64,000 nt of DNA from an uncultured Duodenibacillus sp. (GCA_944390715.1 CALXQS010000007.1:21467-85466), one strand, 5' to 3'. Positions 49,926 to 64,000 are shown, counted from the stretch's first letter. Translations and numbers: made by a program. The notes: generated by a model not told the origin, from the sequence alone.

Positions 49926-50423
49926 ATGACAAAGACGCTGTTTTGCCGTGCCCTGATCGGGGCAGCTGCCGTTTCGACGCTGATTTTGAGCGGCTGTTCG
50001 AGCGTTGCGCTCGATGAGTCTGCCAAGGCGGGAACGACCCGCGCCGAAGCCGAGGCGGCTCAGAACGCCCGTCGCGATGCGGCAGCTGCTGCGTTGCAGC
50101 AGAAGTCGATCTTTTTTGATTTCGACTCCTATGCCGTGCAGGCCACATATCTGCCGGTAATTGAAGCGCATGCGCGCAATCTCATTACCAATTCCGGCGC
50201 GCACGTTGTGATTGAGGGCAACACGGACAGCCGAGGCAGCCGTGAGTACAACCTTGCGCTGGGACAGAAACGAAGCGAGGCCGTCAAGCAGCGCATGCAG
50301 CTTTTGGGGGTGCCCGCAAGCCGTATCGAGGCCGTGAGCTTCGGACGCGAGAAGCCTGTGGCCGTGGGCGAAAATGAGGCTGCTTGGGCGCAGAACCGCC
50401 GTGCCGACATTGTTTATCGATAA
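49926..50423 (+). CDS. pal: Peptidoglycan-associated lipoprotein
   Basis: Lipobox LSGC; FFDFD, EGNTDSRGSREYNLALGQKR, NRRA. Confidence 0.96.
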   Translation: MTKTLFCRALIGAAAVSTLILSGCSSVALDESAKAGTTRAEAEAAQNARRDAAAAALQQKSIFFDFDSYAVQATYLPVIEAHARNLITNSGAHVVIEGNTDSRGSREYNLALGQKRSEAVKQRMQLLGVPASRIEAVSFGREKPVAVGENEAAWAQNRRADIVYR

Positions 50424-50449
50424 GAAACGTCAGCGTTTGACTGAAAGGA

Positions 50450-51181
50450 ATGCTTGTGAATAAGAATTCTGCCTTTGCGCTGGCTGCGGCGGCTCTCATG
50501 CTGGGTGCGGCTGCTCCTGCGCACGCACTTTTCGGCGATGATGAGGCACGCATGGCGATTCTGGATCTGCGCCAGCGTATGGATGCGCTGCAAAACGCCC
50601 AGATGCAGCTTGTGGCCCAAATTGAGCAGCTGCGTGAGCAAAACGCGCAGCTTACCGGACGTCTCGAAGAGCTTGCCAACGATCTCACGCGCCAACAGCA
50701 GTCCTCGCGCGACCTTTTCTCTTCGCTTGACGCGCGTCTTGCGCCGCTTTCTTCTGCCAAGGTTGAAATTGACGGTGCAAGCTTTGAGGCAAGCGCTGAA
50801 GAGCGGCGCCGTTATGAATCAGCGCTTTCGCTGTTTTCGCAGGGAAAGTATGAAGACAGCGCCTCGCTTTTGAGCTCTTTGGTTGACGATTATCCGACCA
50901 CGGGCTATATGCCGAGCGCTCTGTACTGGCTTGGCAATGCGCTGTATGCTCAAAACAAGCTCTCGCAGGCGCTCGCCGTGCAGAACCGTTTGATCAAGGA
51001 CTTTGCCGATCACCCTCGCATTGCTGATGCGAAGCTCTCCAAGGCCGCGGCGCTCACAGGGCTGGGACGCAAGAGTCAGGCTCAAGGCGTGCTGCGCGAA
51101 ATCATCAAGAGCTATCCTAAGACGACCTATGCAGAACTTGCGCAAAAACGTCTTGAAGCACTCAATCCCAAAAGAAAGTAG
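50450..51181 (+). CDS. cpoB: Tol-Pal system protein CpoB/YbgF
   Basis: LFGDDEARMAIL coiled coil plus TPRs (ALYWLGN). Confidence 0.9.
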   Translation: MLVNKNSAFALAAAALMLGAAAPAHALFGDDEARMAILDLRQRMDALQNAQMQLVAQIEQLREQNAQLTGRLEELANDLTRQQQSSRDLFSSLDARLAPLSSAKVEIDGASFEASAEERRRYESALSLFSQGKYEDSASLLSSLVDDYPTTGYMPSALYWLGNALYAQNKLSQALAVQNRLIKDFADHPRIADAKLSKAAALTGLGRKSQAQGVLREIIKSYPKTTYAELAQKRLEALNPKRK

Positions 51182-51225
51182 CTCTGGGGCACGAAATCGC
51201 CGATGACTCGACGGCAAAAGGCAAG

Positions 51226-51246
51226 AAGGGGCGCGCAGCGCCCCTT
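51226..51246 (+). terminator. Probable terminator hairpin after cpoB
   Basis: 9-bp stem aaggggcgc/gcgcccctt; weak U-tail. Confidence 0.5.
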
Positions 51247-51310
51247 TGCGTCTGCAGCTGCAGGCCTGTACGAAGAGCGTTTTTTTGAAGATCAATGCCA
51301 ATAGTGTGTT

Positions 51311-52177
51311 ATGGATGTAGACAACGCGCATCAGCCTAGCCTGGCCGACATTGCTCAAATGCCGGGGGATGCTTCGCCCGAAGAGGTCGACGGCATAGCC
51401 TTTGCGCGTCTGTACGGGGAGCCGCTTTTTCAAGTTCCCGACGGTCTGTATATTCCGCCTGACGCGCTCAAGGTCTTTTTGGAGAGCTTTGAGGGGCCGC
51501 TCGATCTTCTGTTGTACCTCATTCGGCGCCAGAAGTTCGACGTGATGGAAATTCCAATGGCGCTTGTCACCGAACAGTACATGGGCTACGTCGAGCTGAT
51601 TCGCAAAACGAATCTGGAGTTGGCAGCCGACTACCTGGTAATGGCCGCGCACCTCATGCAAATCAAAAGCCAGCTTCTGCTGCCTGTGACCAAGGTTGAT
51701 ACGGGAGAAGAAGTTGCCGATCCGCAGGCTGAATTGGCCCGCAGACTGCTTGAGTACGAGCGCATGAAGATGGCTGCCGTCGAACTTGACCAAATTCCCA
51801 GAGCGGGACGCGACTTCTTCAAGGCTTTCGTGCTTGTTGAGCAGTCGCAGGCAAAGCTGTTGCCCGAGGTTTGTGTCGACGACCTCAAGCAAGCCTGGGA
51901 GTCGATTCTCAGACAGGCTAAACTCAAGGGCGCACATAAGATTTCTCGTCAGGAACTGAGCGTGCGCGAGTTCATGAGCGAAATTTTGAAGCGGCTGACG
52001 AGTGAAAGGTTCGTTGACTTCGAAAAGCTCTTTGACCCGCAGATGGGCATTGCAGGCGTGATCGTCAACTACCTTGCCATTTTGGAGCTGGCCAAGGAAG
52101 GCTTGATTCGCATCACGCAGGCGGCGCCCTTTGCGCCAATCTATGTGACGGGCGTGAGTCCCGTCGACGAGGTTTAA
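51311..52177 (+). CDS. scpA: Segregation and condensation protein A
   Basis: FEGPLDLLLYLIRR, AADYLVMAAHLMQIKS, LAILELAKEG. Confidence 0.93.
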   Translation: MDVDNAHQPSLADIAQMPGDASPEEVDGIAFARLYGEPLFQVPDGLYIPPDALKVFLESFEGPLDLLLYLIRRQKFDVMEIPMALVTEQYMGYVELIRKTNLELAADYLVMAAHLMQIKSQLLLPVTKVDTGEEVADPQAELARRLLEYERMKMAAVELDQIPRAGRDFFKAFVLVEQSQAKLLPEVCVDDLKQAWESILRQAKLKGAHKISRQELSVREFMSEILKRLTSERFVDFEKLFDPQMGIAGVIVNYLAILELAKEGLIRITQAAPFAPIYVTGVSPVDEV

Positions 52178-52203
52178 ATCATCAATTAGTAAACGATTTG
52201 GAA

Positions 52204-52536
52204 ATGGCCTGCAAATATTGCTCTCAGTACATCGCCCGCGCTTTTAAAGAAGTTGAGCGTTTTGAGGACGCGTGCCGCGCGCTGCGGCTCGACCCCAAGA
52301 AGAGCACGGATTATGAAGCCATTGTGCGGGGGCTGACCGGCATCGGACAGTTCGGCACCATCCGGTTGGCGCGCCGCTATCCCTTCGTCACCAATGAGGA
52401 AGAATTTCGCATGGTGGCCGATGTGGGACTGCATTTTTATTGGATGACGCTTGATTTTTGGGATGAAATCCGTGAAAAAGAGGCTCGCGAGCGGCAAGCT
52501 CAGGACGTGCCCTTGAAATCCTCAACACCACGATAA
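52204..52536 (+). CDS. Hypothetical protein with N-terminal CxxC
   Basis: 110-aa ORF filling the gap after scpA with protein-like composition; no family recognised. Confidence 0.6.
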   Translation: MACKYCSQYIARAFKEVERFEDACRALRLDPKKSTDYEAIVRGLTGIGQFGTIRLARRYPFVTNEEEFRMVADVGLHFYWMTLDFWDEIREKEARERQAQDVPLKSSTPR

Positions 52537-52692
52537 AGCAAAAGCCGCCGGCAGGGGAATTCCGCTTGGCGGCTTGGCGTTTGCAGCTGCAGACAAGGCA
52601 GCGTTTTCAAACATGATTCGGCATTTTTGAGAGCACTTTTGCCAGCGACGCAGGCTGCCGGGCAGACAGCGTTGCTGGCAGGCTGTTTCTGA

Positions 52693-53601
52693 CTACTCAA
52701 TGTTTTGGAGTTGTTCTCGCATTTGGTCGACCGAGAGCTTAAGCGAGATGGCCGCGTCGGTCATTTCAATGGAAGCGGCTTTGCTGCCGAGCGTGTTGGA
52801 TTCTCGGTTCATTTCCTGAGTAAGAAAGTCGAGCCTGCGGCCGGCAGCGCCTCCGGCTTCAAGCACGCGGCGCACCTCGGCGACGTGTGTGCGAAGTCGG
52901 TTGACTTCCTCCGCAACGTCCATGCGCAGAGCGTAAAGCGTGACTTCCTGACGAATGCGTTCGGTGACTTCTTCTTTGGTGAGCGAGCCTGCCTTTGAGA
53001 GTGCTTCGCTAAGCGCCGCTTCAAGTCTCTCGGTGAGCTTGGCTTGGAGCTGTGCATGGATTTGCGGAATGCGCGGCACCAATGCGTCGACCGTCTCGAG
53101 AATTTTCGTGCAGTTTGCTTGGAGAATTTTCTTTAAGGCTTCTCCTTCTCGGCTGCGGCTGCCGTCAAAGGCATCCATGGCCTGATTCATCACCGTGCGC
53201 AATGATGCAGCGACGGCTTCGTTGTCGACGGCGGCGGCTTTGACGATGCCGGGATATTCCAAGATGTCGGTCATGCGCAGAGGCTGGGCTTGCGGCATTT
53301 GGGCCAAAATTTGATTTTGCAGTGCCTGCAGGCTTTGCAAGGCGTCGACATTTACCGAGGGCGCAGTCTGAGTCATCATCGTAAAACTAATGCGGCACTC
53401 AAATTTTCCGCGGACAACGCGTGATTTGACGATTTCCTGCAGAATCGGTTCGAAGGGGCGAAGCTCTTCGGGCATGCGCATCGTGATGTCGAGAAAACGG
53501 GAGTTGACGCAGCGCAGTTCAATATGAACAAGACCTAAGGGAGTTTCGCCCTGCGCGTTGGCAAAACCGGTCATGGAATGAATGACTGACATAAAAAGCA
53601 A
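52693..53601 (-). CDS. yicC: YicC/YloC-family endoribonuclease
   Basis: SMTGFA, VNSRFLD, GRRLDFLTQEMNRESNTLGSK, QMREQLQNIE. Confidence 0.93.
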   Translation of the reverse strand: MLFMSVIHSMTGFANAQGETPLGLVHIELRCVNSRFLDITMRMPEELRPFEPILQEIVKSRVVRGKFECRISFTMMTQTAPSVNVDALQSLQALQNQILAQMPQAQPLRMTDILEYPGIVKAAAVDNEAVAASLRTVMNQAMDAFDGSRSREGEALKKILQANCTKILETVDALVPRIPQIHAQLQAKLTERLEAALSEALSKAGSLTKEEVTERIRQEVTLYALRMDVAEEVNRLRTHVAEVRRVLEAGGAAGRRLDFLTQEMNRESNTLGSKAASIEMTDAAISLKLSVDQMREQLQNIE

Positions 53602-53780
53602 GCGTTATAACGAAAAGGTCACGAAAAATTGGGTGCTGCAGGACGAGAGTCTAAGCGGTTTGCGCAGGCCGGCAGCAAAAGCTGCACCCGCTCAAACATC
53701 AGGCACGACGCCGGCAAAAGGCGTGTAGGATTATGCCCGATACAAACACGGTTGATGCCTAAACGGCAAGGAAGACGGAC

Positions 53781-54509
53781 ATGAGCGAGCGACATGACGG
53801 GCGCGCAATGGATGAAAAGCGCGCAGTGAGCTTTGAACGCGGCTTTACTTGTCACGCTGAGGGAAGCGTGCTGGTAAGCGTTGGACGTACAAAAGTACTG
53901 TGCACGGCAAGCGTTATTGAGGGCGTGCCTAAGTTTTTGAAGGATAAAAACGAAGGCTGGGTGACGGCTGAATACGGCCTGCTGCCGCGTTCAACCGGCA
54001 CGCGTACTGATCGTGAGGCGGCTCGCGGCAAGCAGTCGGGACGCACGCAGGAGATTCAAAGACTCATTGGACGCAGTCTGCGCGGGGTTGTTGACCGTAC
54101 CAAGCTTGGTCAGTACACCATCACGCTGGACTGCGATGTGCTGCAGGCCGACGGCGGCACGCGCTGCGCCTCGATCAGCGGCGCCTGGGTGGCGCTCTAC
54201 GATGCCGTGCAATGGATGCTCGCCAAGGGGTTGATTCAGGAAAATCCCATTCTTGAGCAGGTTGCTGCCATAAGCGTGGGCATGACCGAAGCGGGCGCCG
54301 TGCTTGATCTGGACTATGTTGAGGACAGTTCAAGCGACACCGATATGAATGTTGTGATGACTGCCAGCGGCCGCTTTATTGAACTGCAGGGCACTGCTGA
54401 AGGTGCGCCTTTTTCGCGCCAGGAGCTTGCCAGCATGCTTGATTTGGCAGAAAAAGGCTGCCGGGAACTCATGCAGGCCCAAAGGCAGGCACTGGGACTT
54501 TCGTTATAG
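53781..54509 (+). CDS. rph: Ribonuclease PH
   Basis: [35 protein letters not shown]. Confidence 0.97.
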
Positions 54510-54524
54510 AGCAAAGGTTCGGCA

Positions 54525-55124
54525 ATGTTGAAAAAACTTGTACTAGCGTCCAACAACAAAGGAAAAATTCGCGAATTCAATGCCCTTTTCGGCAGCCGCG
54601 GCATTGAAGTGACCGCCCAAGGGGCGCTTGGCGTTGTTGAGTGCGAAGAGCCCTTTGAAACATTTTTGGAAAATGCTCTTGCCAAAGCACGCAACGCTGC
54701 GCGTCAAACTGGTCTGCCTGCCATGGCCGACGATTCGGGCATTACGGCGCATGCGCTGGTTACGGAGCCAGGCGTGCATTCGGCACGCTACGCGGGCGCG
54801 CATGCCGACGATGCTGCCAATAATGCCAAGCTTGTAGCTGCGCTCAAGGGGATCTCCGACAAGCGTGCGGCCTATACCTGCGTGCTTGTGGCGGTGCGCA
54901 CGGCCGATGATCCTGATCCGGTGGTGGCGCAGGCAAGCTGGGCCGGCGAAATCATTGATGAGCCTCGCGGCACGGGAGGCTTTGGCTACGATCCTTATTT
55001 TTACCTGCCTGAATTTGCCAAAACGGCGGCGGAATTGACGGCTCAGGAAAAGAATGCCGTCAGCCACAGGGGACGGGCTATGGTGCGCATGCTGCAGGCC
55101 TTAGAGGAGCGCTGGGGGTGGTAG
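54525..55124 (+). CDS. rdgB: dITP/XTP pyrophosphatase
   Basis: ASNNKGK, ADDSG, GFGYDP, KNAVSHRG. Confidence 0.96.
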   Translation: MLKKLVLASNNKGKIREFNALFGSRGIEVTAQGALGVVECEEPFETFLENALAKARNAARQTGLPAMADDSGITAHALVTEPGVHSARYAGAHADDAANNAKLVAALKGISDKRAAYTCVLVAVRTADDPDPVVAQASWAGEIIDEPRGTGGFGYDPYFYLPEFAKTAAELTAQEKNAVSHRGRAMVRMLQALEERWGW

Positions 55125-56284
55125 AGATCGTGCCCGAAGCGGGCATTGCGCTTTACGTACACTGGCCCTGGTGCGTGCGCAAGTGCCCTTACTGCGACTT
55201 TAATTCCGTCGCGCTTTCTGCTCGCAGCCATGAAGCGCAGTACCTGAGCGCTTTGCTCAAAGACCTGGATGCGTGTCTGCAGCTTGCTGGAGCGCGGACG
55301 GTGACGTCAATTTTTTTTGGCGGAGGTACGCCGAGCCTGATGAGCGCAGAGGGTTTTGCCGGGCTGATGGAAGGCATTTCTCGGCGCGTGCAGCTTGCAG
55401 CTGACTGTGAAGTGACGATGGAAGCTAATCCCGGCACTGTCGAGCAAGAGAGGTTTGAAGACTATGCTCGAGCAGGCGTCAACCGCTTTTCAATCGGCGT
55501 GCAGAGCTTTAATGATCGATTTTTGAAGGCGCTCGGGCGCATTCATTCGGGCCGTGAGGCGCATCGCGCGGTGGAAGCTGCGCTTCACTGTACTGACAAC
55601 GTCAATCTTGACGTGATGTATGCTCTGCCCGGGCAGACGCTTGATGATGTCGGCCGCGATGTGGATGCAGCTTTGCATGCGGGCGTGACTCACCTGTCGT
55701 TTTACGAGCTCACGATTGAGGAGGGAACGGCGTTTGCCAAGAAGACTCCTGCGGGACTGCCCGATATTGATGCGGCTGCCGACATGGGGGATCTTGTGCA
55801 TGCCCGCCTGAGCGAAGCCGGTTTTGAGCACTATGAGATTTCGGGGTATGCCAAAGCAGGACGGCGCTGCCGGCATAATCTGACCTACTGGACATTTGGC
55901 GATTATTTAGGCATAGGTGCAGGCGCGCACGGCAAAGTGACGGTTGACGGCGGCATTTTGAGAACAGTGCGGCGTGCTTCGCCTTTTTTATACATGGACG
56001 ATGTCGAGCAGGAGCGCGTGTCGGGGCAGCTGCATGATGTGGATGCGCAGTCGCTGCCTTTTGAGTTCATGCTCAATGCGCTTCGCTTGTTCGAAGGTGT
56101 TCCTGCCGCACGCTGGCAGCAGACGACGGGGCTGAGTCTGTCGGTGATTGAGCCCGTGCTCGCAGAGCTCCGTAAGGAGGGGCTCTTGGTGCAGGACGCC
56201 GACCGCATTGCGGCAACCGATTTGGGAAGGCGTTTTCTGAGCGATGTGCAGGAGCGCTTTCTTCCTGAAGAAGACCGTTTCTAG
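55118..56284 (+). CDS. hemW: Radical SAM heme chaperone HemW
   Basis: YVHWPWCVRKCPYCDFNS, GGGTPS, YEISGY, HNLTYW. Confidence 0.93.
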   Translation: MVEIVPEAGIALYVHWPWCVRKCPYCDFNSVALSARSHEAQYLSALLKDLDACLQLAGARTVTSIFFGGGTPSLMSAEGFAGLMEGISRRVQLAADCEVTMEANPGTVEQERFEDYARAGVNRFSIGVQSFNDRFLKALGRIHSGREAHRAVEAALHCTDNVNLDVMYALPGQTLDDVGRDVDAALHAGVTHLSFYELTIEEGTAFAKKTPAGLPDIDAAADMGDLVHARLSEAGFEHYEISGYAKAGRRCRHNLTYWTFGDYLGIGAGAHGKVTVDGGILRTVRRASPFLYMDDVEQERVSGQLHDVDAQSLPFEFMLNALRLFEGVPAARWQQTTGLSLSVIEPVLAELRKEGLLVQDADRIAATDLGRRFLSDVQERFLPEEDRF

Positions 56285-56342
56285 CCAGCGGCTGCTTTTT
56301 AGGGCGTTTCTTCAAATATTTCTTTTTTTGCGGAGGGCGTGA

Positions 56343-57599
56343 GTGTCAGTTTTCGAGCAGTGGTTCAAACGTGCGGTCCTCGCAGGGACGGTTGTTTTGC
56401 TTGCGGCATGTTCAACGACGCCGCCCGAAGACGAGCCGGTCGTCATCCCCGGCGAGACGATTGTTCCGGTTCCTGAAGAGAGGCCGACGACTGTGCCTGC
56501 CCAGGCGGCTTATCCGCTGGTCGACGGCGCCGTGCGCTTTGCGCGCGTCTCGTTTTCGGAGCTTCCGTCTGTGCCCGAAGCAAGCTGGGAGGCGGCGCTT
56601 TCGGCCTTTAAACGTTCCTGCACTCAAATGGGAACCAAGGCGATTTGGCTTGACGCCTGTTCAAACGCGCAGTTTGTGAAGACCGGAGGCGCACGCGACT
56701 TTTTTCTGACGTGGTTTGATGCTTGGCGCGTGGCTTCGCTTGCCGGCAAAGAAGATGAGAGCATCACTGAGACGGGAATTGCCACTGGCTATTATGAGCC
56801 GATGCTCAGGGGCAGCCGCCGCAGGCACGGCCCCTACCAGCATCCGGTCTATCGCGTTCCGGACGATTTGATCGTTGTCGATCTTCAAAGCCTGCATCCG
56901 GAACTCAAGAACATGCGGCTGCGGGGCAAGCTCGAGGGCCGCAAACTCGTGCCCTACGATACAAGGGCGCAGATTGCACGCCGTTCCGACATGAGGCGCT
57001 ATGTTCTATGCTGGGTGGATGATCCGGTGGAGGCTTTTTTTCTGCAGGTGCAGGGATCGGGCAGAGTGCTTCTTGATGACGGCACATTCATGCGTCTGAG
57101 CTACGCCGATCAGAACGGACATCCGTACAGAGCCATTGCCAATTGGTTGGTAAAAAATGCCGGCCTTTCTCGTTCTGAGATGAGCATGGAGCGCATCAAG
57201 CGCTGGGCGAAAGAAAACCCTGATCGCACGCAGGAGCTGCTAAACGCCAATCCAAGCTTTGTATTTTTCAAAGAGCGAAAAGACGCTGACGAATCAGCCG
57301 GCCCTATCGGCTCGCAGGGCGTTGCGCTTACGCCCGAGGCTTCGATTGCCGTGGACCGCCGCTATTGGCCCATGGGCATGCCTTTTGTGCTTGACATCAA
57401 GCAGGACCGTCCGTACTTGGCAGCTGCGTGCGCCGTTGTGGCCCAAGACACAGGAAGTGCCATCCGGGGCGTGCTGCGCTTTGACTACTTTTGGGGTTAT
57501 GGAGATGAGGCAGGACGCAAGGCCGGCGGTCAAAAAAGCTTGGTTCGAGCGTGGATGCTCATGCCAAAAGGGGAGGATCCCCGCAGACGCCTGCGTTAG
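56343..57599 (+). CDS. mltA: Membrane-bound lytic murein transglycosylase A
   Basis: Lipobox LAAC; TGYYEP, LQVQGSG, NPSFVFF, QDTGSAI, DYFWG. Confidence 0.93.
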   Translation: MSVFEQWFKRAVLAGTVVLLAACSTTPPEDEPVVIPGETIVPVPEERPTTVPAQAAYPLVDGAVRFARVSFSELPSVPEASWEAALSAFKRSCTQMGTKAIWLDACSNAQFVKTGGARDFFLTWFDAWRVASLAGKEDESITETGIATGYYEPMLRGSRRRHGPYQHPVYRVPDDLIVVDLQSLHPELKNMRLRGKLEGRKLVPYDTRAQIARRSDMRRYVLCWVDDPVEAFFLQVQGSGRVLLDDGTFMRLSYADQNGHPYRAIANWLVKNAGLSRSEMSMERIKRWAKENPDRTQELLNANPSFVFFKERKDADESAGPIGSQGVALTPEASIAVDRRYWPMGMPFVLDIKQDRPYLAAACAVVAQDTGSAIRGVLRFDYFWGYGDEAGRKAGGQKSLVRAWMLMPKGEDPRRRLR

Positions 57600-58471
57600 G
57601 CGCCGCTTCACCGAAGAGCAGTTGAACTCAAAGAGCAGTGCTTGACCAGGAGTGCTGACGAGTGCGTGTACGCGGCCTTCGACGGTCTTCAGGCGAGCCA
57701 TGACGATTTTAGGAAAAAGTTCTCAGGCTTGGGAAAGGCAGGAGCCCGGACAGAAGCGAAAAGCCGTACGGGTCGCCTTGCCATTTCGACAAAACCCAAA
57801 CAACATTCCTCTAAAGAGAGAGGCTTTCTTCGACTAAGCGTCGGCATTCCCAACCGCTGTGGTTCGGCGCAACGCCTAACTGGCGCAAATGACTGGCGCT
57901 GCGGCCGCTAAAGATTTTCTGATGAGCCTATTCCTGCTTCATCGGTTGACCAACACCTCAATGAGCGCATCAGGCATCGACTCGTTTGTCGGTGTTTGTG
58001 CGCTTTTTTGTGCAGTAAGAAAAAAGCCAGTTGAGGATAAAGGTTTGAATTGAAGATAATGAGTGCTGCAGATGAATAATAAAAATCCATGCGGATCCAA
58101 AGAAAATAATAATAAAGATCCATAAATTCCCAATATTTTTGTTTTGAGTGAAAATGCAGGATGAAAATTTTTGGAATATGTTTGCTTAAGTGGAAAATTC
58201 TCAGAATGCACGACTTTCTTTATGAAACGAAATAAGGAAATGAAAGGTAAAGTTGGCTGGACGTTTTGACGAGATAAGAAGATGTTTCTCAAAGGTGTTG
58301 CAGAAAGGAAGCATCAGGCAGGGAAAACTTGTGTGAGTTCTCCGAAGGGTGTATAACGGCGATATTCTGCGACAGCGGCGAGAGGTGTTGTTTTCGTCGC
58401 TTGAGGGCAGTATTGTTTGCTTTTGTATATGTCCTGCCGCAACATGAAAATGAAGCTTAGAGAGTTATAAA

Positions 58472-59683
58472 ATGAATATTACAAGGAAGAGATTTTTATT
58501 GGCTGCTGGTGCTGCATGCCTTTTGTCTGCTTGCGAGACGACCAATCCGCTGTTAAAAAGCCAAGAACCGACTTTTCGCCCTCCGATAGAACCTCAGCGA
58601 GTGTATTTCGCTGGGGTTTCTTTGACTGGGAATTACAAAGATAATCAAAAAAATACTCCCTTCTCAGTTGGAATGCTCGATGACCTTGATTCTGAAATGA
58701 GAGAGGTGCTTAAGGGAAAGAGCTTCAAATATATAGATTTGGTTACATCGGAACTGGGAGACATCCGCGACGCGGATTCGTTGGCTGTCACGCTGGGCGT
58801 GGATTTGGAAACGGTTGTTGTCTACCCTTGGCCGGAAAATAAATTCAAAGTAGTAGTAGATATTTATACGCAGCTTCTATTCTTCGATTTTGCAGAAAAG
58901 AAGGTTGTTCGCACTGTGCCGATCAACTATCAGTACATTACTTTGCTGAAACATAAACCTTCTCGCAAAGAATTGAAGGACATAATCTATGGGATGTACG
59001 TAGGGAAACTAGACGGAGTAGAAAAGGGAGTTTTGCAGACAGTTGTCGAAAAGCTGCAGAACATCATTGTCCAGTCTAGCTATAAGGCATACCTCAAGGT
59101 TGAAAATGTTGAGATCGGCGACCGCGCGCAGAAAATGGTTGATAGATTTGACATGACGTCAGATCAATTCAAAACATTGATGGCGCAGATGTTTGTTCGC
59201 TCGTTGGTGGACAATTTGGCCGTTGCGGTTATTCCCTACACGGTGGGACAGGCAATAGGCGGCAAGATGGTTGGCCGCTTCAGCAACGGCGTTGAATATA
59301 GTCTGACAATGCCGGAGCCGGATTATGTGTTCGATCTGAGCTTGAGAAGCTGCAAAACCCTCAGGGATGAAGAGTCAAGCAAAACGGTTGACAGAGAAGT
59401 CTATATGGCGCTTTTGAAAATAAAGCTCACGCAAAAGGACTTGGGAACCGTTTATATGGATCGAGTTCTGCGTGCTGTTGGCGAGGCAGCTTTGCTCAAG
59501 GGACAGAAGGGACATCTGGAAGTGGCCTATGTTGAGACCCTGATGGGATTTTTTGAGGGCTTTGCCAGAAGTCTGATCAAGAAGCAAAAGAATTGGTTGG
59601 ACTTGGTCGTGCCATCGGATAAAGTGGCTTCTTTGGAACAGGATTTGAAAAGGGTGTCTGAGGTCATGCCCTTGTGCCGTTAA
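58472..59683 (+). CDS. Uncharacterised lipoprotein, 403 aa
   Basis: MNITRKRFLLAAGAACLLSAC lipobox (Cys21); alpha/beta pattern; no catalytic motif seen. Confidence 0.8.
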   Translation: MNITRKRFLLAAGAACLLSACETTNPLLKSQEPTFRPPIEPQRVYFAGVSLTGNYKDNQKNTPFSVGMLDDLDSEMREVLKGKSFKYIDLVTSELGDIRDADSLAVTLGVDLETVVVYPWPENKFKVVVDIYTQLLFFDFAEKKVVRTVPINYQYITLLKHKPSRKELKDIIYGMYVGKLDGVEKGVLQTVVEKLQNIIVQSSYKAYLKVENVEIGDRAQKMVDRFDMTSDQFKTLMAQMFVRSLVDNLAVAVIPYTVGQAIGGKMVGRFSNGVEYSLTMPEPDYVFDLSLRSCKTLRDEESSKTVDREVYMALLKIKLTQKDLGTVYMDRVLRAVGEAALLKGQKGHLEVAYVETLMGFFEGFARSLIKKQKNWLDLVVPSDKVASLEQDLKRVSEVMPLCR

Positions 59684-59705
59684 TTTTGAAACATAAAGGA
59701 AAAAA

Positions 59706-60794
59706 ATGTCGAAGAAATTTTTGACAATGGCTTGCTGCGCTGTCTTGACAGCTTTCTTTTCTCTGTCAGCGCAGGCAATTGAGGTAAAGGGGCAGGTGTC
59801 ATATCCCTACAAGGGAAAGATTTTCAGCAGCAAGCCTTCGGACAAGGACAAAATGGAGGCAATTAAGCAGGCGAAATTGGCTGCGCTCAAAAAGTTTTCT
59901 ACTGGATTCAGCATTTCTGAACAGAAGCTTTATGCGGGCATGGAAAGTGATGTTCAGGCAAATCTGGACAAATATATTTCCAATTATCGAGTGGTTGCAG
60001 AAGAGGTTGACACAAATCTGAAGACTCTCAATTTGGTCGTGCGTGTGGACATCAACGATTCTTTGCTGCTGTCTGAAATGCATAAGAATTCACCGCAGCA
60101 GCCGGCTGTTCAGGGCGACGGCAGCTTGTTTGCCTCTCTGTTCGTTGCTAGAGAAATTTCTGAAAGCAAGATTTTCGATGAACGGCGCACCACAATCACC
60201 CAAAAGAGCTCAGCGGCATCTACGACACGCGAAGCATCTGCTGGTTCAGTGAATGAATCTGCACAAACAACAGAAAAAGCAACAACCGGCGGCAATACGA
60301 TAAGAAAAAGCGCGGTCAACAAGTATCGTGAATTGGCAACGACAGACTTTAACGCAGCATTCAGTACAGTGCTGACTCAGCTGGGGTTCGAAGCCACAGA
60401 ATATGCCGATGTCCACGAGAACTGCGGGGGACCGAAGCCGGAGGCTCTCAAGGCAGCATTCATGAAGGGAGATGAGATACCCTCCAAATTGAGAAATCAG
60501 GCTATCAGAGCCGCACGATCTTGCGACGTGCGATATTTTGCTACTGGGTATATGAACGTATCGGCACCCCAGAAGGACTCTGTTTCGGGAAAAATCAAAG
60601 TGATGGTGGCCGTAAACGGAATGGTTTGGGATATTTCGAAAAAGTTGCCTCGCAAGGTCGGCTCTGTCGGTCCCGTGCAGGCCTTCGGTCTTGCTGACGA
60701 TCAGGATTCTGCGAGAAGAGAGGCTTTAAGACACGCAGCTTCGGCAGCAGGGCAGGCGATCGCTAACCAGCTGGCCAGCAAAAGCATCCGTTAG
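59706..60794 (+). CDS. Uncharacterised exported protein, 362 aa (possible LPP20/FlgT-N-like N-domain)
   Basis: Signal peptide ending AQA; strong SD; EAIKQAKLAAL helix followed by a beta-hairpin. Confidence 0.75.
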   Translation: MSKKFLTMACCAVLTAFFSLSAQAIEVKGQVSYPYKGKIFSSKPSDKDKMEAIKQAKLAALKKFSTGFSISEQKLYAGMESDVQANLDKYISNYRVVAEEVDTNLKTLNLVVRVDINDSLLLSEMHKNSPQQPAVQGDGSLFASLFVAREISESKIFDERRTTITQKSSAASTTREASAGSVNESAQTTEKATTGGNTIRKSAVNKYRELATTDFNAAFSTVLTQLGFEATEYADVHENCGGPKPEALKAAFMKGDEIPSKLRNQAIRAARSCDVRYFATGYMNVSAPQKDSVSGKIKVMVAVNGMVWDISKKLPRKVGSVGPVQAFGLADDQDSARREALRHAASAAGQAIANQLASKSIR

Positions 60795-60895
60795 GCTTTA
60801 CGTGAATTTTGTTGCGAATTCGAGCAAAGGGTTGGGTCTCGGAGTCGCCGTAAATTGAACATCCAACCCCATGCATTAGGAAAGGATCATTAAAA

Positions 60896-61576
60896 ATGTT
60901 AAGAAGAAATCTCGTGGCGGGCGCAATCACAGCTTTGATGGTAAGTCCTGCATTTGCCTTCCTTGACAAGGTTGGTCTGGGCGGCGGCAATTCCGGCAAG
61001 GCTGTCGATGCTGACAGCTTCAACAAATCTAGAACAGATCTGGAGAAGAAATACATTCTTGCTGCTGCCGCGGTTCTGGCCTCGCAAATTGATTTGGCGC
61101 AAGCGCTGAATGTCAAAGCTGATATTGCGCAGGCCGAGGAGCTCAATAAGGTTCTCAAGGGCGGCAATTTGTCAAGCGATACAGTGGAGAAGGTTTCGTC
61201 GACCAGCAAGACTCTCAATGAGCAGCTCAAGAAGGGAATGGAAGAGACCGACAAGCTCAGTGCAAAGCAAAAGAAGCTTGTTGGAAGCGGCCTTGTGAAA
61301 TACGCTGCAGGCGTTGCAATGACTGCAGCACTCGGCATCGAAGCAAAGCACGTGGCAGAGTCGGCGACAGATGTTTTGAAGAGTGCCAATCCGATTTCCA
61401 AGGTCAAGCTTGCCTCCGAACTCGGTGCTTGTCTTGCCATCGGCAAGGAACTTCCTTCGCATGCGAAGAATTTGGTGACCGGCGGAAATCAAATGGTTCA
61501 AATCGCGACCAAGAAGGGCGTGAGCACCAAAGGCGCGAAGAAGAAGCTGGCAGAAGCCGCAAATTTTGATTTCTAA
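60896..61576 (+). CDS. Uncharacterised exported alpha-helical protein, 226 aa
   Basis: Signal peptide ending AFA; Ala/Lys/Leu-rich amphipathic helices; AGGA-type SD. Confidence 0.8.
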   Translation: MLRRNLVAGAITALMVSPAFAFLDKVGLGGGNSGKAVDADSFNKSRTDLEKKYILAAAAVLASQIDLAQALNVKADIAQAEELNKVLKGGNLSSDTVEKVSSTSKTLNEQLKKGMEETDKLSAKQKKLVGSGLVKYAAGVAMTAALGIEAKHVAESATDVLKSANPISKVKLASELGACLAIGKELPSHAKNLVTGGNQMVQIATKKGVSTKGAKKKLAEAANFDF

Positions 61577-61661
61577 GAAATTTAAAGTTTGAAGGGATCC
61601 GGCAAGGGATATCAGAGAGGACTTCTTTTGCCGGCATCTCTTTTCCTGAGTCTGATTTGTT

Positions 61662-62912
61662 ATGCGAAATATTTTCAAGCTCTTGGCGCTGTTGTTTTTC
61701 TGGCTGGGAACGCAGAACGCTGTTATGGCGAAAGCTGTTGTCGTCACTTCAGAGGGAACGGGCAGCACTTTTGAGGAAGCGAGAACGTCTGCTTTGCAAG
61801 ATGCGATTATGCAGGTTACAGGCGTGACCTTGGATGCCAGGACTGTTCAGCAGCTGACTCATCAAACGCAGTCTTCCGTTGATAACGGCTCTCAACATCA
61901 GCAAACCTTCACAGAATCCTCTCTTTCTAAAGAGGTCAGAGAAAAACTAAGAGGGTACGTAAATTCGTACCAACTTTTGGATCGACAGCAGCTTGCGGAC
62001 GGCAGACTTCAAGTACGCTTGAAAGTGTCGATAGAAAAGTGGGAATTGAATGTTCCGGCAAACGACAGAAGAACCTTGACAGTGCAGGCTTTTGACGCAT
62101 CAACGGGCGTGTGCTTCAACAATAAGCTGGATGCGGAAGCGATTTCGACTGCCGCTGTTGATGCAATTCAGTCTGCTCTTACTTCCACCAGAAAATTCGC
62201 TGTTTTGGATCGCGACGGGGAAGCCTACGCCGCAGAAAGAGAGTTTTTGACGAAGAACCCGGATGTTAGACCGCAGGAATTGGCCCGCATAGGCAATCTC
62301 AAGGGGTCAGACTATATTCTTTCAGGAAAGGTTCGAAACTTAATCATAGGGCAGACGAAGAATAAGAGTTCTTTAAATAATACGGTGTTCGTGGATAGGT
62401 ATGCACGAGCAGATATTCTTTTCAACGTGATGTTGTTTGCCAATGGTCAGGTTCAGCTTTCAGCGCCAGTAAAGGTAAATATCAGATCTGGGCTTGCAGG
62501 AAAAACATGCGGAGAAATATTGACCGCTCTTATGGAAAATGGCGCCAAGCAAATAGCCGAACAAACTGTCGCTACGATTTTCCCTCCCCGCGTAATTGAG
62601 GTTAATGGACAGGATATTCTCGTAAATTATGGAAGTCCAAATTTCAAAGTGGGACAGACTTACAATATCTATGCTGCCGGGAAAATTATTTATGACCCGT
62701 ATACAAAAGAGCAGCTTGGCCGTTCGGAAGAACTCATAGGTCAAGTCACGGCGGTAGATGTAAAGCCGAAATTTTCGATTCTGCGCATGAAGCAGGCTCA
62801 GTTAACGACAAAGGTTCAGCCTGGAGCGATCGTGCGGCCATTGCAAAAGTCGACTAGCACGACGAAGGCAAAGGCCAAGCGCCGAAAGGTGGTGTCGGAT
62901 GATGAATGGTAG
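61662..62912 (+). CDS. FlgT-like / CsgG-HfaB-fold exported protein, 416 aa
   Basis: N-domain VVVTSEGTG..EEARTSALQDAIMQVTG; middle domain KFAVLDR..SDYILSG; C-domain VIEVNGQDILVNYG..DPYTKEQLG..GQVTAVDV..KFS. Confidence 0.65.
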   Translation: MRNIFKLLALLFFWLGTQNAVMAKAVVVTSEGTGSTFEEARTSALQDAIMQVTGVTLDARTVQQLTHQTQSSVDNGSQHQQTFTESSLSKEVREKLRGYVNSYQLLDRQQLADGRLQVRLKVSIEKWELNVPANDRRTLTVQAFDASTGVCFNNKLDAEAISTAAVDAIQSALTSTRKFAVLDRDGEAYAAEREFLTKNPDVRPQELARIGNLKGSDYILSGKVRNLIIGQTKNKSSLNNTVFVDRYARADILFNVMLFANGQVQLSAPVKVNIRSGLAGKTCGEILTALMENGAKQIAEQTVATIFPPRVIEVNGQDILVNYGSPNFKVGQTYNIYAAGKIIYDPYTKEQLGRSEELIGQVTAVDVKPKFSILRMKQAQLTTKVQPGAIVRPLQKSTSTTKAKAKRRKVVSDDEW

Positions 62913-62969
62913 ACCATTGGTCTGGGTTCTTTCTTGAGACAGCAAGCAAGGAAACAACAAGAATCGACC

Positions 62970-64000
62970 ATGAAACGGTATACAGACGTGCTGCTTTTGA
63001 TCTTTGCCTTTGTTTTGTTTGGCACTCAAGCTGTCTATGCTGATGGAATGTCGAGTGCCATACAAGCTTCAAGGGTATGGAAAAGCATCCAGAATCAAGC
63101 AATAGAGACAGGGGTTTACCGGCAGGCAGGCTACGTCTTCGCATACGTGGTCAAGAAAGTCGACGATCCCGCAACTTTGAGGGTCCAAGAACTTCAGGCA
63201 CAGCGCGAAGCGGGAATGCTGCTGTTTCGTGAATCGGCTCGAGAAGCGGCTTCGCGCGTGCCTCAGAAAGATGTTCCCTATCTGGGCTTTGCGACCGGAA
63301 AGCTCAAAGTTTCGGGGCACGTGCTGCTGAACGATTACGATGGGCATTATGTTCGGTATGTGTTCGCAGTTCGGCAAGAAGATTTTGATGCTGCCGGTGC
63401 AGGCCAAGATGTCTCGCTCCTAGCAAAACAAGGCAGGGAATCGTTGTTGAGCGATCCGAGTCCGCACGTTGCGGCTTTGTGGAAGGCTGGGGAGAAAGAA
63501 CTTGCATTGCTTTCGTTTTTGCGTTCGCTGCCGTTGGGGATTGCAAATATTTCCCCTGAACCCATGTCAGTCCGAAAGTCGCTGCCTGTTTTGCAGAAGA
63601 GTTGGAGCTTGATGGACAAGGCGGCAGGAGTTGTCGGCGAACAGAAACCGGTTGGGAAGCTTGCGGCCAATGCTCTCAGATGTCTTGAGTCCCCATCTGC
63701 TTTTAATCGAGAGTTGAAAAACGAGGGCGTTGCGGCCGGCAGACTTGGGACGCCGTTTGCTTTTGGAGTGACAGCCAGAGTTGAGGCCTGCCATGGTTTT
63801 GTCAGAATGTCTGGCTCTATGCCTCGGACTGAACCTCCTGTCATGGAGCGCGTGAAAAAGTTGTTTGCAGAAGGACGAGATCTTGATCTTGCAATCGAAT
63901 TGCTTTTCTCTGCGGCCGAGCAGGCTCCCGCATCTCCTGTTGTATGGGAGTACTTATATGCTGCTTTGTCGACAGCCGGGCGCACGGAAGAGGCGCATAC
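62970..64000 (+). CDS. Exported protein with TPR-like segment (runs off the window edge; absent from ORF track)
   Basis: Manual translation is open for 343 codons from ATG 62970: MKRYTDVLLLIFAFVLFGTQAVYA signal ... AIELLFSAAEQAPASPVVWEYLYAALSTAGRTEEA. Confidence 0.75.
   Translation, partial: MKRYTDVLLLIFAFVLFGTQAVYADGMSSAIQASRVWKSIQNQAIETGVYRQAGYVFAYVVKKVDDPATLRVQELQAQREAGMLLFRESAREAASRVPQKDVPYLGFATGKLKVSGHVLLNDYDGHYVRYVFAVRQEDFDAAGAGQDVSLLAKQGRESLLSDPSPHVAALWKAGEKELALLSFLRSLPLGIANISPEPMSVRKSLPVLQKSWSLMDKAAGVVGEQKPVGKLAANALRCLESPSAFNRELKNEGVAAGRLGTPFAFGVTARVEACHGFVRMSGSMPRTEPPVMERVKKLFAEGRDLDLAIELLFSAAEQAPASPVVWEYLYAALSTAGRTEEAH

What the first reader, a model, noticed from the sequence alone, without database searches (positions are those of the whole stretch)
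58472..64000. Five-gene all-exported operon: candidate undescribed outer-membrane ring or secretion assembly
Seen: five co-oriented genes with gaps of 22, 101, 85 and 57 nt. All carry export signals (one lipobox, four signal peptides), none has an enzymatic motif, and the composition differs from the core. There are no flagellar, curli, T6SS or holdfast genes alongside. Known: FlgT, CsgG, HfaB and LPP20 folds build oligomeric rings or pores at the outer membrane. Inference: lipoprotein anchor + two ring-forming subunits + abundant helical cargo/filament + TPR scaffold, forming a stand-alone envelope machine. The operon may continue beyond the window.
Basis: partly seen in the sequence, partly recalled or inferred. 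Interest (0 to 1): 0.8.

Follow-up and report, generated by a model that had tools for sequence, protein, structure and literature searches.

The report
Six-gene FlgT-like envelope island
A horizontally acquired six-gene operon of exported proteins is an unannotated variant of a widespread but unstudied cell-envelope gene cluster built from the folds of flagellar outer rings, in a bacterium with no flagellum; it probably builds a scaffold under the outer membrane, and its function is untested.

Summary
g5 ends 118 nt past the window, and a 562-aa sixth gene and a terminator-like hairpin follow.

The cluster is an 8.36-kb, low-GC insertion between mltA and erpA. Four congeners have that site empty.

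- g4 has a CsgG/LpoB-type middle domain and a TsaP/FlgT_C-type C-terminal domain.
- g6 belongs to DUF6844 (Francisella FTT_1539c, PDB 4QVR).
- g1 is a lipoprotein modelled as two CsgG/LptE/FlgT-M-like domains.
- g2 shares its N-domain with g4.
- g1, g2 and g3 match no Pfam family.

In 80 loci from about nine phyla, g4 and g6 are adjacent in 75. They pair with one of two modules, never both: a TPR-lipoprotein/YcfL/LpoB trio (55 loci, C. jejuni cj0089-91 type) or g1-g2-g3 (16 loci plus this one).

The genome has no flagellin, secretin or UB2H domain, so the module does not serve a flagellum, a secretin or PBP1b.

Best reading (about 0.55): an outer-membrane-tethered periplasmic scaffold held together by acidic C-terminal tails ending in Phe or Trp, as FlgP docks on FlgT in Vibrio.

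A curli-type pore with g3 as cargo is not supported. Oligomeric state and function are untested.

The parts
56343..57599 (+). mltA, the left flanking core gene (not part of the island)
   Evidence: Pfam MltA 1.9e-60 and 3D domain 7e-19. In four congeners it is followed directly by erpA.
57600..58471 (.). Left end of the 8.36-kb island: an 872-nt non-coding leader. It is AT-rich from about 58000 and presumably holds the promoter.
   Evidence: Homology with the closest congener G019 stops at 57599 and resumes at L002 9427. There is no Rfam match. Public annotations call no gene here. Promoter-like sites are not above shuffles.
58472..59683 (+). g1: 403-aa outer-membrane lipoprotein (lipobox LSAC, +2 Glu). 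It is modelled as two tandem CsgG/LptE/FlgT-M/HpaA-like alpha/beta domains plus a C-terminal helical bundle. No Pfam family.
   Evidence: AlphaFold model, pLDDT 83, pTM 0.76. Foldseek: 3W1E FlgT 2e-6, 8Z5N LPHT ring 3e-6, HpaA 3.5e-6, CsgG 2e-5, LptE 5e-5; the TM-scores are low because only single domains align. No Pfam or PDB sequence match. Homologues elsewhere are all named hypothetical.
59706..60794 (+). g2: 362-aa periplasmic protein. It has an N-terminal LPP20/FlgT_N-like domain shared with g4, a Ser/Thr-rich linker, and a C-terminal domain with a co-conserved Cys pair. It is the marker of the type B module.
   Evidence: FlgT_N E=0.0087, below the cut-off. hhalign of the g2 N-domain against the g4 N-domain gives 85% probability. 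Cys240 and Cys273 are conserved in 12 of 17 sequences. The family has 360 clusters at E<=1e-30 among 1.84 billion representatives. One homologue is named LPP20 lipoprotein.
60896..61576 (+). g3: 226-aa exported protein that looks all-helical from its sequence (not modelled). It ends in NFDF. Some orthologues are lipoproteins.
   Evidence: Alignment A4 shows lipoboxes in L013 (LAGC), L037 (LTAC) and L010 (LCAC). There is no Pfam match and no real PDB relative.
61591..61643 (+). Strong RNA hairpin between g3 and g4. It could be an attenuator or an mRNA-stability element.
   Evidence: Minimum free energy -28.4 kcal/mol, z = -2.49, 4 of 200 shuffles as good. The stem upstream of g3 is no better than shuffles (z = -0.04).
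61662..62912 (+). g4: 416-aa periplasmic FlgT-like core protein. In order it has an LPP20-like N-domain, a CsgG/LpoB-type middle domain, a TsaP/FlgT_C-type beta domain, a Lys-rich linker and the C-terminus SDDEW.
   Evidence: Pfam LpoB 4.2e-6 (27.2 bits, cut-off 22.3) and CsgG 1.8e-4 (21.3 bits, cut-off 20.8), plus weak FlgT_C, FlgT_M and LPP20 hits. All 13 sampled relatives hit CsgG. The family profile hits TsaP: 3jc8 9e-9 and 6ve2 4e-10. There is no Cys in the signal peptide.
62970..64000 (+). g5: 382-aa exported accessory protein with a TPR-like C-terminus. The window cuts it; it ends at window-equivalent 64118.
   Evidence: Full ORF at L002 6437-7585. TPR_19 E=0.048, below the cut-off. Homologues occur in only 4 of 80 loci.
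64000..64000 (+). The operon continues beyond the window. g6 lies at L002 7618-9306 (window-equivalent 64151-65839): 562 aa, DUF6844/FTT_1539c family, disordered tail ending EEAFFF. A hairpin pair follows at L002 9321-9402. The right island border is at L002 9426 (window-equivalent 65959), and erpA follows.
   Evidence: ORF. Model pLDDT 77. Foldseek hit to 4QVR, 5.6e-9. Family profile against 4QVR, 3.9e-68. hhalign against type A DUF6844 proteins, 99.8%. Hairpins z = -2.67. Border.

Best explanation
The feature is a six-gene operon, g1 to g6. It was acquired horizontally as an 8.36-kb island between mltA and erpA.

It encodes a variant ("type B") of a widespread, uncharacterised envelope module. 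The conserved core of that module is a FlgT-like periplasmic protein (g4) and a DUF6844 protein (g6).

**Shown**
- All six products carry export signals.
- g4 and g6 are adjacent in 75 of 80 related loci.
- The core pairs with one of two mutually exclusive accessory modules:
  - type A: a COG3014-type TPR lipoprotein, YcfL/DUF1425 and an LpoB-like lipoprotein;
  - type B: g1 (a lipoprotein with two CsgG/LptE-like domains), g2 (LPP20-like) and g3 (helical).
- The host has no flagellum, no secretin and no UB2H domain.

**Inferred**
- The lipoprotein g1 tethers the set to the inner face of the outer membrane.
- g2, g3, g4 and g6 oligomerise into a ring, disk or lattice under the membrane.
- Subunits are clipped together by disordered acidic C-terminal tails whose last residue is aromatic (g6 ...AFFF, g4 ...DDEW, g3 ...NFDF). 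The model for this is the Vibrio H-ring, where the FlgP C-terminal tail ending in Phe docks in a groove of the FlgT ring.
- The likely role is structural: stabilising or organising the outer membrane, or an envelope coat, in the gut habitat. Export of a substrate is less likely.
For: **Operon and island**
- ORFs and gaps.
- Terminator-like hairpins after g6.
- The site is empty in four congeners, whose flanking genes are 58-98% identical in protein sequence. Breakpoints.
- GC is 48.6% in the island and 55.2% in the genome.
- The island is intact at the same site in six independent metagenome assemblies.

**Folds**
- g4: LpoB and CsgG over the Pfam cut-offs; 13 of 13 relatives hit CsgG; TsaP 9e-9 and 4e-10.
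- g6: 4QVR by fold, 5.6e-9, and by profile, 3.9e-68; hhalign 99.8% to type A DUF6844 proteins.
- g1: FlgT, LPHT ring, HpaA, CsgG and LptE at 2e-6 to 1e-4.
- g2 N-domain matches the g4 N-domain at 85%.

**Co-conservation**
- Of 80 loci, 75 have g6 next to g4. 55 are type A, 16 are type B, and none has both.
- Module type changes at least four times on the g4 tree. A type A locus (L011) is nested inside the gut type B clade.
- The g2 family has 360 clusters at E<=1e-30.

**Either/or between sister genomes**
- The closest congener has a type A cluster at a site that is empty here. Its mltA-erpA site is empty.
- This genome has no type A trio.

**C-terminal tails**
- g6 family: 57 of 60 end in Phe.
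- LpoB-like lipoprotein: 48 of 52 end in Trp.
- g4 ends in Trp in 21 of 27 loci without that lipoprotein and in 5 of 55 with it.
- The g6 tail, residues 539-562, is modelled as disordered.
- Precedent: the FlgP tail Q133-F143 binds a groove in the 26-mer FlgT ring (bioRxiv 10.64898/2025.12.04.692373).

**Stand-alone**
- No flagellin, secretin or UB2H domain.

**Envelope location of relatives**
- FTT_1539c and its LVS orthologue FTL_0572 are an immunodominant antigen and were found in capsule-like-complex preparations (PMC4207810, PMC6013578).
- Cj0091 fractionates with the outer membrane (PMC3100323).
Against: - No oligomer was modelled or observed. The CsgG/LptE/LpoB fold also occurs in monomeric proteins such as LpoB and LptE.
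- The tail-docking idea rests on analogy and on conservation counts that are not corrected for phylogeny.
- 23 of 25 sampled congeners have no g4 homologue, so the module is dispensable and its role may be narrow.
- No phenotype is known for any type B gene.
Confidence: 0.55

Rival explanations
1. Curli-type secretion machine. A CsgG-like oligomer (g4, g1 or both) forms an outer-membrane channel that exports the helical protein g3 as cargo or filament.
For: - The CsgG Pfam hit on g4 is just over the cut-off, and all 13 sampled relatives hit CsgG.
- NCBI names some homologues CsgG/HfaB family protein.
- The g1 model matches CsgG.
- The hairpin after g3 could raise g3 output.
Against: - g4 has a signal peptidase I site and no lipobox, whereas CsgG is lipidated.
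- The loop of g4's CsgG-like hairpin (GQTKNKSSLNNTVFVDRY) is polar, not a membrane hairpin. This is sequence inspection only.
- There are no CsgE, CsgF, CsgA or CsgB-like partners and no barrel gene in the operon.
- At least three g3 orthologues are lipoproteins, so they are retained in the envelope.
- Type A loci have no g3 at all, yet they keep g4 and g6.
Confidence: 0.08
2. Regulator of peptidoglycan enzymes. The LpoB-type domain of g4 (and the LpoB-like lipoprotein in type A loci) reaches from the outer membrane to activate or restrain a synthase or hydrolase. The neighbouring mltA would hint at this.
For: - The LpoB Pfam hit on g4 is over the cut-off.
- Type A loci contain the ycfL-lpoB gene pair known from E. 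coli.
- mltA lies immediately upstream.
Against: - The genome has no UB2H domain, which is the LpoB docking site on PBP1b.
- g4 is not a lipoprotein and lacks the long N-terminal linker.
- The adjacency to mltA comes from an insertion. It is absent in congeners and in the 80 related loci.
- Campylobacterota carry type A; from my own knowledge, not tested here, they lack PBP1b.
Confidence: 0.1
3. Surface or outer-membrane adhesin and colonisation complex. The lipoproteins are surface-exposed and mediate attachment in the gut, as reported for Cj0091 and historically for HpaA.
For: - The g1 model resembles HpaA (3.5e-6).
- A Cj0091 mutant shows reduced adherence and early chick colonisation (PMC3100323).
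- The Francisella DUF6844 protein is immunodominant and found in capsule-like material.
- The closest type B relatives are in gut and rumen metagenome genomes.
Against: - The module also occurs in free-living marine bacteria, sponge symbionts and Chlorobium, so host adhesion cannot be its general role.
- Only one of the six proteins here is lipidated.
- No adhesin-type repeats or lectin domains were found.
- This reading can coexist with a scaffold role.
Confidence: 0.15
4. There is no common machine. The genes encode independently acting envelope proteins that travel together only because they were transferred as one block.
For: No interaction data exist. Gene order varies between loci: g6 lies before or after g4, and g5 is optional.
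Against: - g4-g6 adjacency holds in 75 of 80 loci from about nine phyla, and g1-g2-g3 stay together in 16 loci.
- Different subunits share C-terminal tail motifs.
- The terminal Trp shifts between subunits according to module type.
Confidence: 0.07

Closest known systems
Vibrio polar-flagellum H-ring (FlgT with FlgP and FlgO; PDB 3W1E, 8Z5N)
   Same: - It uses the same domain vocabulary: an LPP20-type domain, a CsgG/TolB_N-type middle domain and a FlgT_C-type beta domain.
- A non-lipidated FlgT-type protein works with lipoproteins.
- In Vibrio the FlgP tail ending in Phe docks in a FlgT groove. Here g6, g4 and g3 end in acidic tails with a terminal Phe or Trp.
   Different: - There is no flagellum in the genome and no flgH, flgI, motX or motY context.
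- g4 matches the FlgT Pfam models only below their cut-offs.
- The partners g1, g3, g5 and DUF6844 have no H-ring counterpart.
Type A cluster: COG3014-type TPR lipoprotein, YcfL/DUF1425, LpoB-like lipoprotein, DUF6844 and FlgT-like protein. It includes C. jejuni cj0089-cj0091 (PMC3100323). The E. coli ycfL-lpoB pair appears to be a reduced relative (from memory).
   Same: - It has the same g4 + g6 core, adjacent and co-oriented.
- The sister species G019 carries this type instead.
- Both types show the same C-terminal aromatic tails.
   Different: - The lipoprotein trio is absent from this locus and from the whole genome.
- g1-g2-g3 take its place.
- The terminal Trp sits on g4 instead of on the LpoB-like lipoprotein.
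- That cj0092 and cj0093 are the g6 and g4 homologues is recalled from memory, not tested.
Francisella tularensis FTT_1539c (PDB 4QVR; Pfam DUF6844)
   Same: g6 is a family member: profile E=3.9e-68 and Foldseek 5.6e-9. The protein is envelope-associated and abundant in Francisella.
   Different: - g6 belongs to a longer subfamily (about 560 aa against about 470 aa) with extended coiled-coil inserts.
- The Pfam DUF6844 model itself does not score on g6.
- No function is known for either protein.
CsgG curli secretion channel
   Same: The middle domain of g4 and both g1 domains share its alpha/beta fold.
   Different: - g4 has no lipid anchor.
- No transmembrane hairpins are evident.
- There are no curli partner genes.
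TsaP, the secretin-associated ring protein of type IV pili (3JC8, 6VE2)
   Same: The g4 C-terminal beta domain is homologous to the repeated FlgT-like domains of TsaP.
   Different: There is no LysM domain and no secretin in the genome.
E. coli LpoB, outer-membrane activator of PBP1b
   Same: Pfam LpoB matches the g4 middle domain above the cut-off.
   Different: g4 is not a lipoprotein, has no long linker, and has no UB2H partner in the genome.

Membership tests
FlgT (flagellar H-ring protein) | Three-domain architecture FlgT_N / FlgT_M / FlgT_C | tested here: inconclusive
   g4 gives sub-threshold hits to FlgT_M (0.077), FlgT_C (0.072) and LPP20 (0.59) in the right order. Among 13 relatives, 6 hit FlgT_M and 4 hit FlgT_C. 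The C-domain is robustly TsaP/FlgT_C-like. g4 was not modelled, and profile searches did not find 3W1E.
FlgT (flagellar H-ring protein) | Flagellar context (LP ring, FlgO/FlgP, MotX/MotY) | tested here: not met
   No flagellin in a 100%-complete genome. The flanks are mltA and erpA.
FlgT (flagellar H-ring protein) | Forms a 26-mer ring | not testable with these tools
   No multimer prediction was available.
CsgG/HfaB secretion channel | Match to Pfam PF03783 over the gathering score | tested here: met
   g4 scores 21.3 bits against a cut-off of 20.8. All 13 relatives match, the best at 1.2e-12.
CsgG/HfaB secretion channel | N-terminal lipobox (lipoprotein) | tested here: not met
   The g4 signal peptide ends ...NAVMA|K and has no Cys.
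CsgG/HfaB secretion channel | Amphipathic transmembrane hairpins that form the barrel | tested here: inconclusive
   Sequence inspection only: the hairpin loop of the g4 middle domain is polar. No structure or membrane prediction was run on g4.
CsgG/HfaB secretion channel | Partner genes (csgE/F plus an amyloid subunit, or hfaA/D) | tested here: not met
   No such Pfam hits in g1-g6 or the flanks.
LpoB (PBP1b activator) | Match to Pfam PF13036 over the gathering score | tested here: met
   g4 scores 27.2 bits against a cut-off of 22.3, covering model positions 48-115 of 147. It is the only hit in the genome.
LpoB (PBP1b activator) | Outer-membrane lipoprotein with a long disordered N-terminal linker | tested here: not met
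   g4 has no lipobox. An LPP20-like folded domain precedes the LpoB-type domain.
LpoB (PBP1b activator) | Target PBP1b with a UB2H domain in the same genome | tested here: not met
   PF14814 is absent from the genome.
DUF6844 / FTT_1539c family (g6) | Homology to the family and to the solved member 4QVR | tested here: met
   Profile 3.9e-68. Foldseek 5.6e-9, probability 1.00. hhalign 99.8% between the long and short subfamilies. The Pfam model alone misses g6.
DUF6844 / FTT_1539c family (g6) | Disordered C-terminal tail ending in an aromatic residue | tested here: met
   g6 ends ...TEEAFFF. 57 of 60 relatives end in Phe. Residues 539-562 have pLDDT below 50.
Type A envelope cluster (cj0089-91 type) | COG3014-type TPR lipoprotein + DUF1425/YcfL + LpoB-like lipoprotein | tested here: not met
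   No family HMM hit in the locus or the genome. PF13036 hits only g4.
Type A envelope cluster (cj0089-91 type) | Adjacent FlgT-like + DUF6844 pair | tested here: met
   g4 and g6 lie in one operon, separated only by g5. The pair is found in 75 of 80 loci.
TsaP (secretin-associated ring) | LysM peptidoglycan-binding domain and a secretin partner | tested here: not met
   No LysM hit on g4. No secretin in the genome.
LPP20/FlgP family (g2) | Match to the LPP20 or FlgT_N model, and a lipobox | tested here: not met
   FlgT_N 0.0087, below the cut-off. Only 2 of 17 relatives hit it. The signal peptidase I site is AQA|I. The domain is related to the g4 N-domain at 85%.

The most novel reading that the evidence does not exclude
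The FlgT-like + DUF6844 pair is the core of an ancient, flagellum-independent machine that sits under the outer membrane as a ring or lattice. It accepts interchangeable lipoprotein adaptor modules, type A or type B. It is wired together by a simple code of acidic C-terminal tails ending in Phe or Trp. The terminal Trp is supplied by the LpoB-like lipoprotein when that is present and by the FlgT-like subunit when it is not. On this reading, the Vibrio H-ring and E. coli YcfL-LpoB would be specialised or reduced offshoots of this machine.
Probability: 0.3. Interest if true: 0.8.

Novelty: new variant of a known kind. Interest (0 to 1): 0.55.

Why it matters
- **A large uncharacterised envelope system.** A gene cluster spanning about nine phyla, made only of exported proteins with ring-forming folds, has no published function. 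Relatives include an immunodominant Francisella antigen and the neighbours of a Campylobacter colonisation factor.
- **What this locus adds.** The FlgT-like/DUF6844 pair is a separable core with two alternative adaptor modules.
- **A natural either/or experiment.** Two sister species carry type B here and type A in the congener, each with the other's site empty.
- **A concrete handle.** The terminal aromatic tails can be tested by mutation.
- **If the scaffold reading holds.** It would define a new class of periplasmic architecture. It would also explain where the extra flagellar rings, and possibly LpoB, came from.

Tried and rejected
- **Sequence searches against PDB:** profiles of g1, g2 and g3 gave nothing real. 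The g3 hits are coiled-coil noise.
- **Scanning all g1 and g2 relatives against Pfam:** no consistent family.
- **Profile-profile comparisons of type B and type A proteins:** g1 vs c2, c3, c4; g3 vs c2, c3, c4; g5 vs c2. All were insignificant. The two modules may be analogous, but homology was not detected.
- **Larger g4 profile:** 56 sequences still did not reach FlgT 3W1E by sequence.
- **Rfam on 50000-64000:** no match, so the 872-nt leader holds no known RNA.
- **tRNA scan:** none.
- **Promoter and terminator consensus scans:** not above shuffles.
- **Island borders:** no direct repeats and no mobility genes, so the route of acquisition is unknown.
- **Within-species pN/pS:** too few variants to be useful. 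The g3 excess (15 non-synonymous against 4 synonymous) may stem from an indel allele in one assembly. g4 shows no variation by construction, because the look-up was by exact sequence.
- **Apparent truncation of g1 and loss of g5 in some public gene calls:** gene-caller differences only. The ORFs are intact.
- **Literature searches:** DUF6844, FlgT-like, DUF1425/LpoB/CsgG and FTT1539c gave no functional study of the cluster.

Full report
**1. Observation**

Each product begins with a typical export signal:
- g1 has a lipobox (LLSAC|E).
- g2 to g5 have signal-peptidase-I sites (AQA|I, AFA|F, VMA|K, VYA|D).

Pfam and NCBIfam find no enzymatic domain. GC falls to 40-53% per kb in the cluster, against mostly 54-60% upstream of it.

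I fetched the contig beyond the window. This shows:
- g5 is 382 aa and ends 118 nt past the window.
- A sixth exported gene follows after 32 nt. This is g6: 562 aa, signal VQA|A.
- A strong hairpin pair comes next, the second hairpin followed by a U run (z = -2.67).
- erpA follows.

The operon therefore has six genes.

**2. It is an island**

In four congeners, mltA is followed directly by erpA. The flanking genes of these congeners are 58-98% identical in protein sequence to those here.

Alignment with the closest congener, G019, places the breakpoints at window 57600 and window-equivalent 65959. That makes 8.36 kb, which replaces about 107 nt.

- The island is 48.6% GC and the genome 55.2%.
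- It has no tRNA, no border repeats and no mobility gene.
- It lies intact at the same site in six independent metagenome assemblies.
- Only 2 of 25 genomes of the genus have any g4 homologue.

**3. What the proteins are**

*g4*
- It passes the Pfam cut-offs for LpoB (27.2 bits) and CsgG (21.3 bits) in its middle domain.
- It gives ordered sub-threshold hits to LPP20, FlgT_M and FlgT_C.
- All 13 sampled relatives hit CsgG.
- Family profiles match the FlgT-like domains of the secretin-ring protein TsaP, at 9e-9 and 4e-10.

*g6*
- It gives no significant Pfam hit on its own.
- Its model (pLDDT 77) matches only 4QVR, Francisella FTT_1539c, at 5.6e-9.
- The family profile hits 4QVR at 3.9e-68.
- The long subfamily to which g6 belongs aligns with the DUF6844 type at 99.8%.

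*g1*
- The model (pLDDT 83) has two tandem alpha/beta domains.
- Its best fold matches are FlgT, the Vibrio LPHT ring, HpaA, CsgG and LptE.

*g2*
- Its N-domain is shared with g4 (85%).
- It has a co-conserved Cys pair.

*g3*
- It looks all-helical from its sequence; it was not modelled.
- It has no relatives in Pfam or PDB.
- At least three orthologues are lipoproteins.

*g5*
- It is poorly conserved and has a TPR-like end.

g1, g2 and g3 belong to no Pfam family. Their homologues are named hypothetical, or once LPP20 lipoprotein.

**4. Comparative context**

A scan of one genome per species returned 80 loci with a g4 relative. By record title they come from Pseudomonadota, Campylobacterota, Thermodesulfobacteriota, Verrucomicrobiota, Kiritimatiellota, Planctomycetota, Chlorobiota, Synergistota and Myxococcota.

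Iterated family HMMs and clustering of neighbouring ORFs give:
- g6 lies next to g4 in 75 of 80 loci.
- 55 loci carry a module of three lipoproteins (type A), identified by Pfam. They are a TPR lipoprotein of about 480 aa, DUF1425/YcfL, and an LpoB-family lipoprotein.
- 16 loci carry g1-g2-g3 (type B).
- No locus carries both modules.

Type A is the C. jejuni cj0089-cj0091 arrangement (PMC3100323).

On a g4 tree the module type changes at least four times. One type A locus (L011) is nested inside the gut type B clade that holds the window. The modules are therefore exchanged on a conserved core.

The g2 family numbers 360 clusters at E<=1e-30 among 1.84 billion representatives.

**5. A natural either/or**

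- The window's genome has one copy each of g1 to g6 and no type A trio.
- Its closest congener, G019, has g4'-g4-g6-TPR lipoprotein-DUF1425-LpoB at another site.
- That site is empty in the window's genome: the flanks abut within about 60 bp.
- G019's mltA-erpA site is empty.

**6. C-terminal tails**

- 57 of 60 g6-family proteins end in Phe, usually after Asp or Glu.
- 48 of 52 LpoB-like lipoproteins end in Trp.
- g4 ends in Trp in 21 of 27 loci that lack that lipoprotein. It does so in only 5 of 55 loci that have it. Fisher p = 6e-10, not corrected for phylogeny.
- In L011, the nested type A locus, g4 ends LFVN and the lipoprotein ends ISW.
- Here g6 ends AFFF, g4 ends DDEW and g3 ends NFDF.

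The cryo-EM study of the Vibrio LPHT ring reports that the FlgP tail Q133-F143 binds a groove of the 26-mer FlgT ring (bioRxiv 10.64898/2025.12.04.692373). This is a direct precedent for tail-in-groove assembly between these folds.

Earlier notes of this scan report similar tails in other genomes. I made my counts before reading them. They are AI notes, not independent evidence.

**7. What it is not**

The genome lacks three things:
- flagellin;
- a secretin;
- a UB2H domain.

The module therefore cannot be an accessory of a flagellar LP ring or of a secretin. It also cannot be a PBP1b activator of the E. coli kind.

A curli-type pore is unlikely, for four reasons:
- g4 is not lipidated.
- Its CsgG-like hairpin loop is polar.
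- There is no barrel gene or curli partner in the operon.
- The proposed cargo, g3, is lipid-anchored in some orthologues and absent from type A loci.

**8. Mechanism proposed**

*Shown*
- The proteins are exported.
- They have ring-type folds.
- The core pair and its modules are tightly co-conserved.
- The tail motifs are conserved.
- The module is independent of flagella, secretins and PBP1b.

*Inferred (about 0.55)*
- g1 anchors the set to the outer membrane.
- g2, g3, g4 and g6 form an oligomeric scaffold beneath it, clipped together by the aromatic tails.
- g5 is an optional helper.
- The role is structural.

Relatives are envelope-associated and abundant. The Francisella protein is immunodominant and occurs in capsule-like material. 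Cj0091 is in the outer membrane and affects adherence.

*Rivals*
- an adhesin complex (0.15);
- a regulator of peptidoglycan enzymes (0.10);
- a secretion channel (0.08);
- no common machine (0.07).

**9. Limits**

- No multimer model was possible.
- g4 was not modelled.
- Conservation counts are not corrected for phylogeny.
- The organism's identity is inferred only. It is probably Sutterella-like: the nearest g4 is in a Sutterella MAG.

**10. Verdict**

This is a real, horizontally acquired six-gene operon. It is a new and unannotated variant of a widespread but functionally unknown kind of envelope module. It deserves interest mainly because the system as a whole is unexplained. This locus also gives clean handles for testing it: the two alternative modules, the reciprocal empty sites in sister species, and the terminal tails.

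Noticed in passing
G019:C16 (L091 5078-12028) versus own genome C6:84120-84180: The closest congener carries a type A cluster (g4'-g4-g6-TPR lipoprotein-DUF1425-LpoB) at a site that is empty in the window's genome. Its own mltA-erpA site is empty. The two sister species thus have reciprocal presence and absence of the two variants.
   Followed up: yes
C-termini of g4 (62898-62909), g3 (61562-61573) and g6 (L002 9286-9303), and of relatives in L006-L085: The absolute C-terminal residue is aromatic: Phe in 57 of 60 DUF6844 proteins and Trp in 48 of 52 LpoB-like lipoproteins. The FlgT-like protein carries the terminal Trp mainly in loci that lack the LpoB-like lipoprotein.
   Followed up: partly
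61591-61643: There is a strong hairpin between g3 and g4 (z = -2.49). The stem upstream of g3 proposed in a sister note is no better than shuffled sequence (z = -0.04).
   Followed up: partly
57600-58471: An 872-nt non-coding leader lies inside the island. Its first 300 nt or so are GC-rich and the rest is about 35-40% GC. It has no Rfam match and no called gene. A terminator-like hairpin sits at 57971-57998.
   Followed up: partly
g2 residues 240 and 273 (60423-60425, 60522-60524); g1 residue 402 (59675-59677): g2 has a co-conserved Cys pair (12 of 17 sequences), likely a periplasmic disulfide. g1 has an unpaired, conserved penultimate Cys (8 of 16), which could form an intermolecular link.
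   Followed up: no
L011 (gut Alphaproteobacteria MAG, JAZUBA010000070.1): A type A locus whose g4 is nested inside the gut type B clade. This is evidence that the accessory modules are swapped on a conserved core.
   Followed up: partly
L002 12417-12704 (downstream of the island, beyond the window): A small 95-aa exported ORF with a weak NapB (dihaem cytochrome c) hit sits alone between a cyclase gene and metG.
   Followed up: no
53781-55124: rph and rdgB are separate ORFs here, 15 nt apart. In two public assemblies of the same species they are called as one 447-aa fusion (L092, L095).
   Followed up: no
60896-61576 in L093: g3 is the most variable gene among six near-identical assemblies: 15 non-synonymous against 4 synonymous variants, and a 231-aa allele. 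An indel may cause this.
   Followed up: partly
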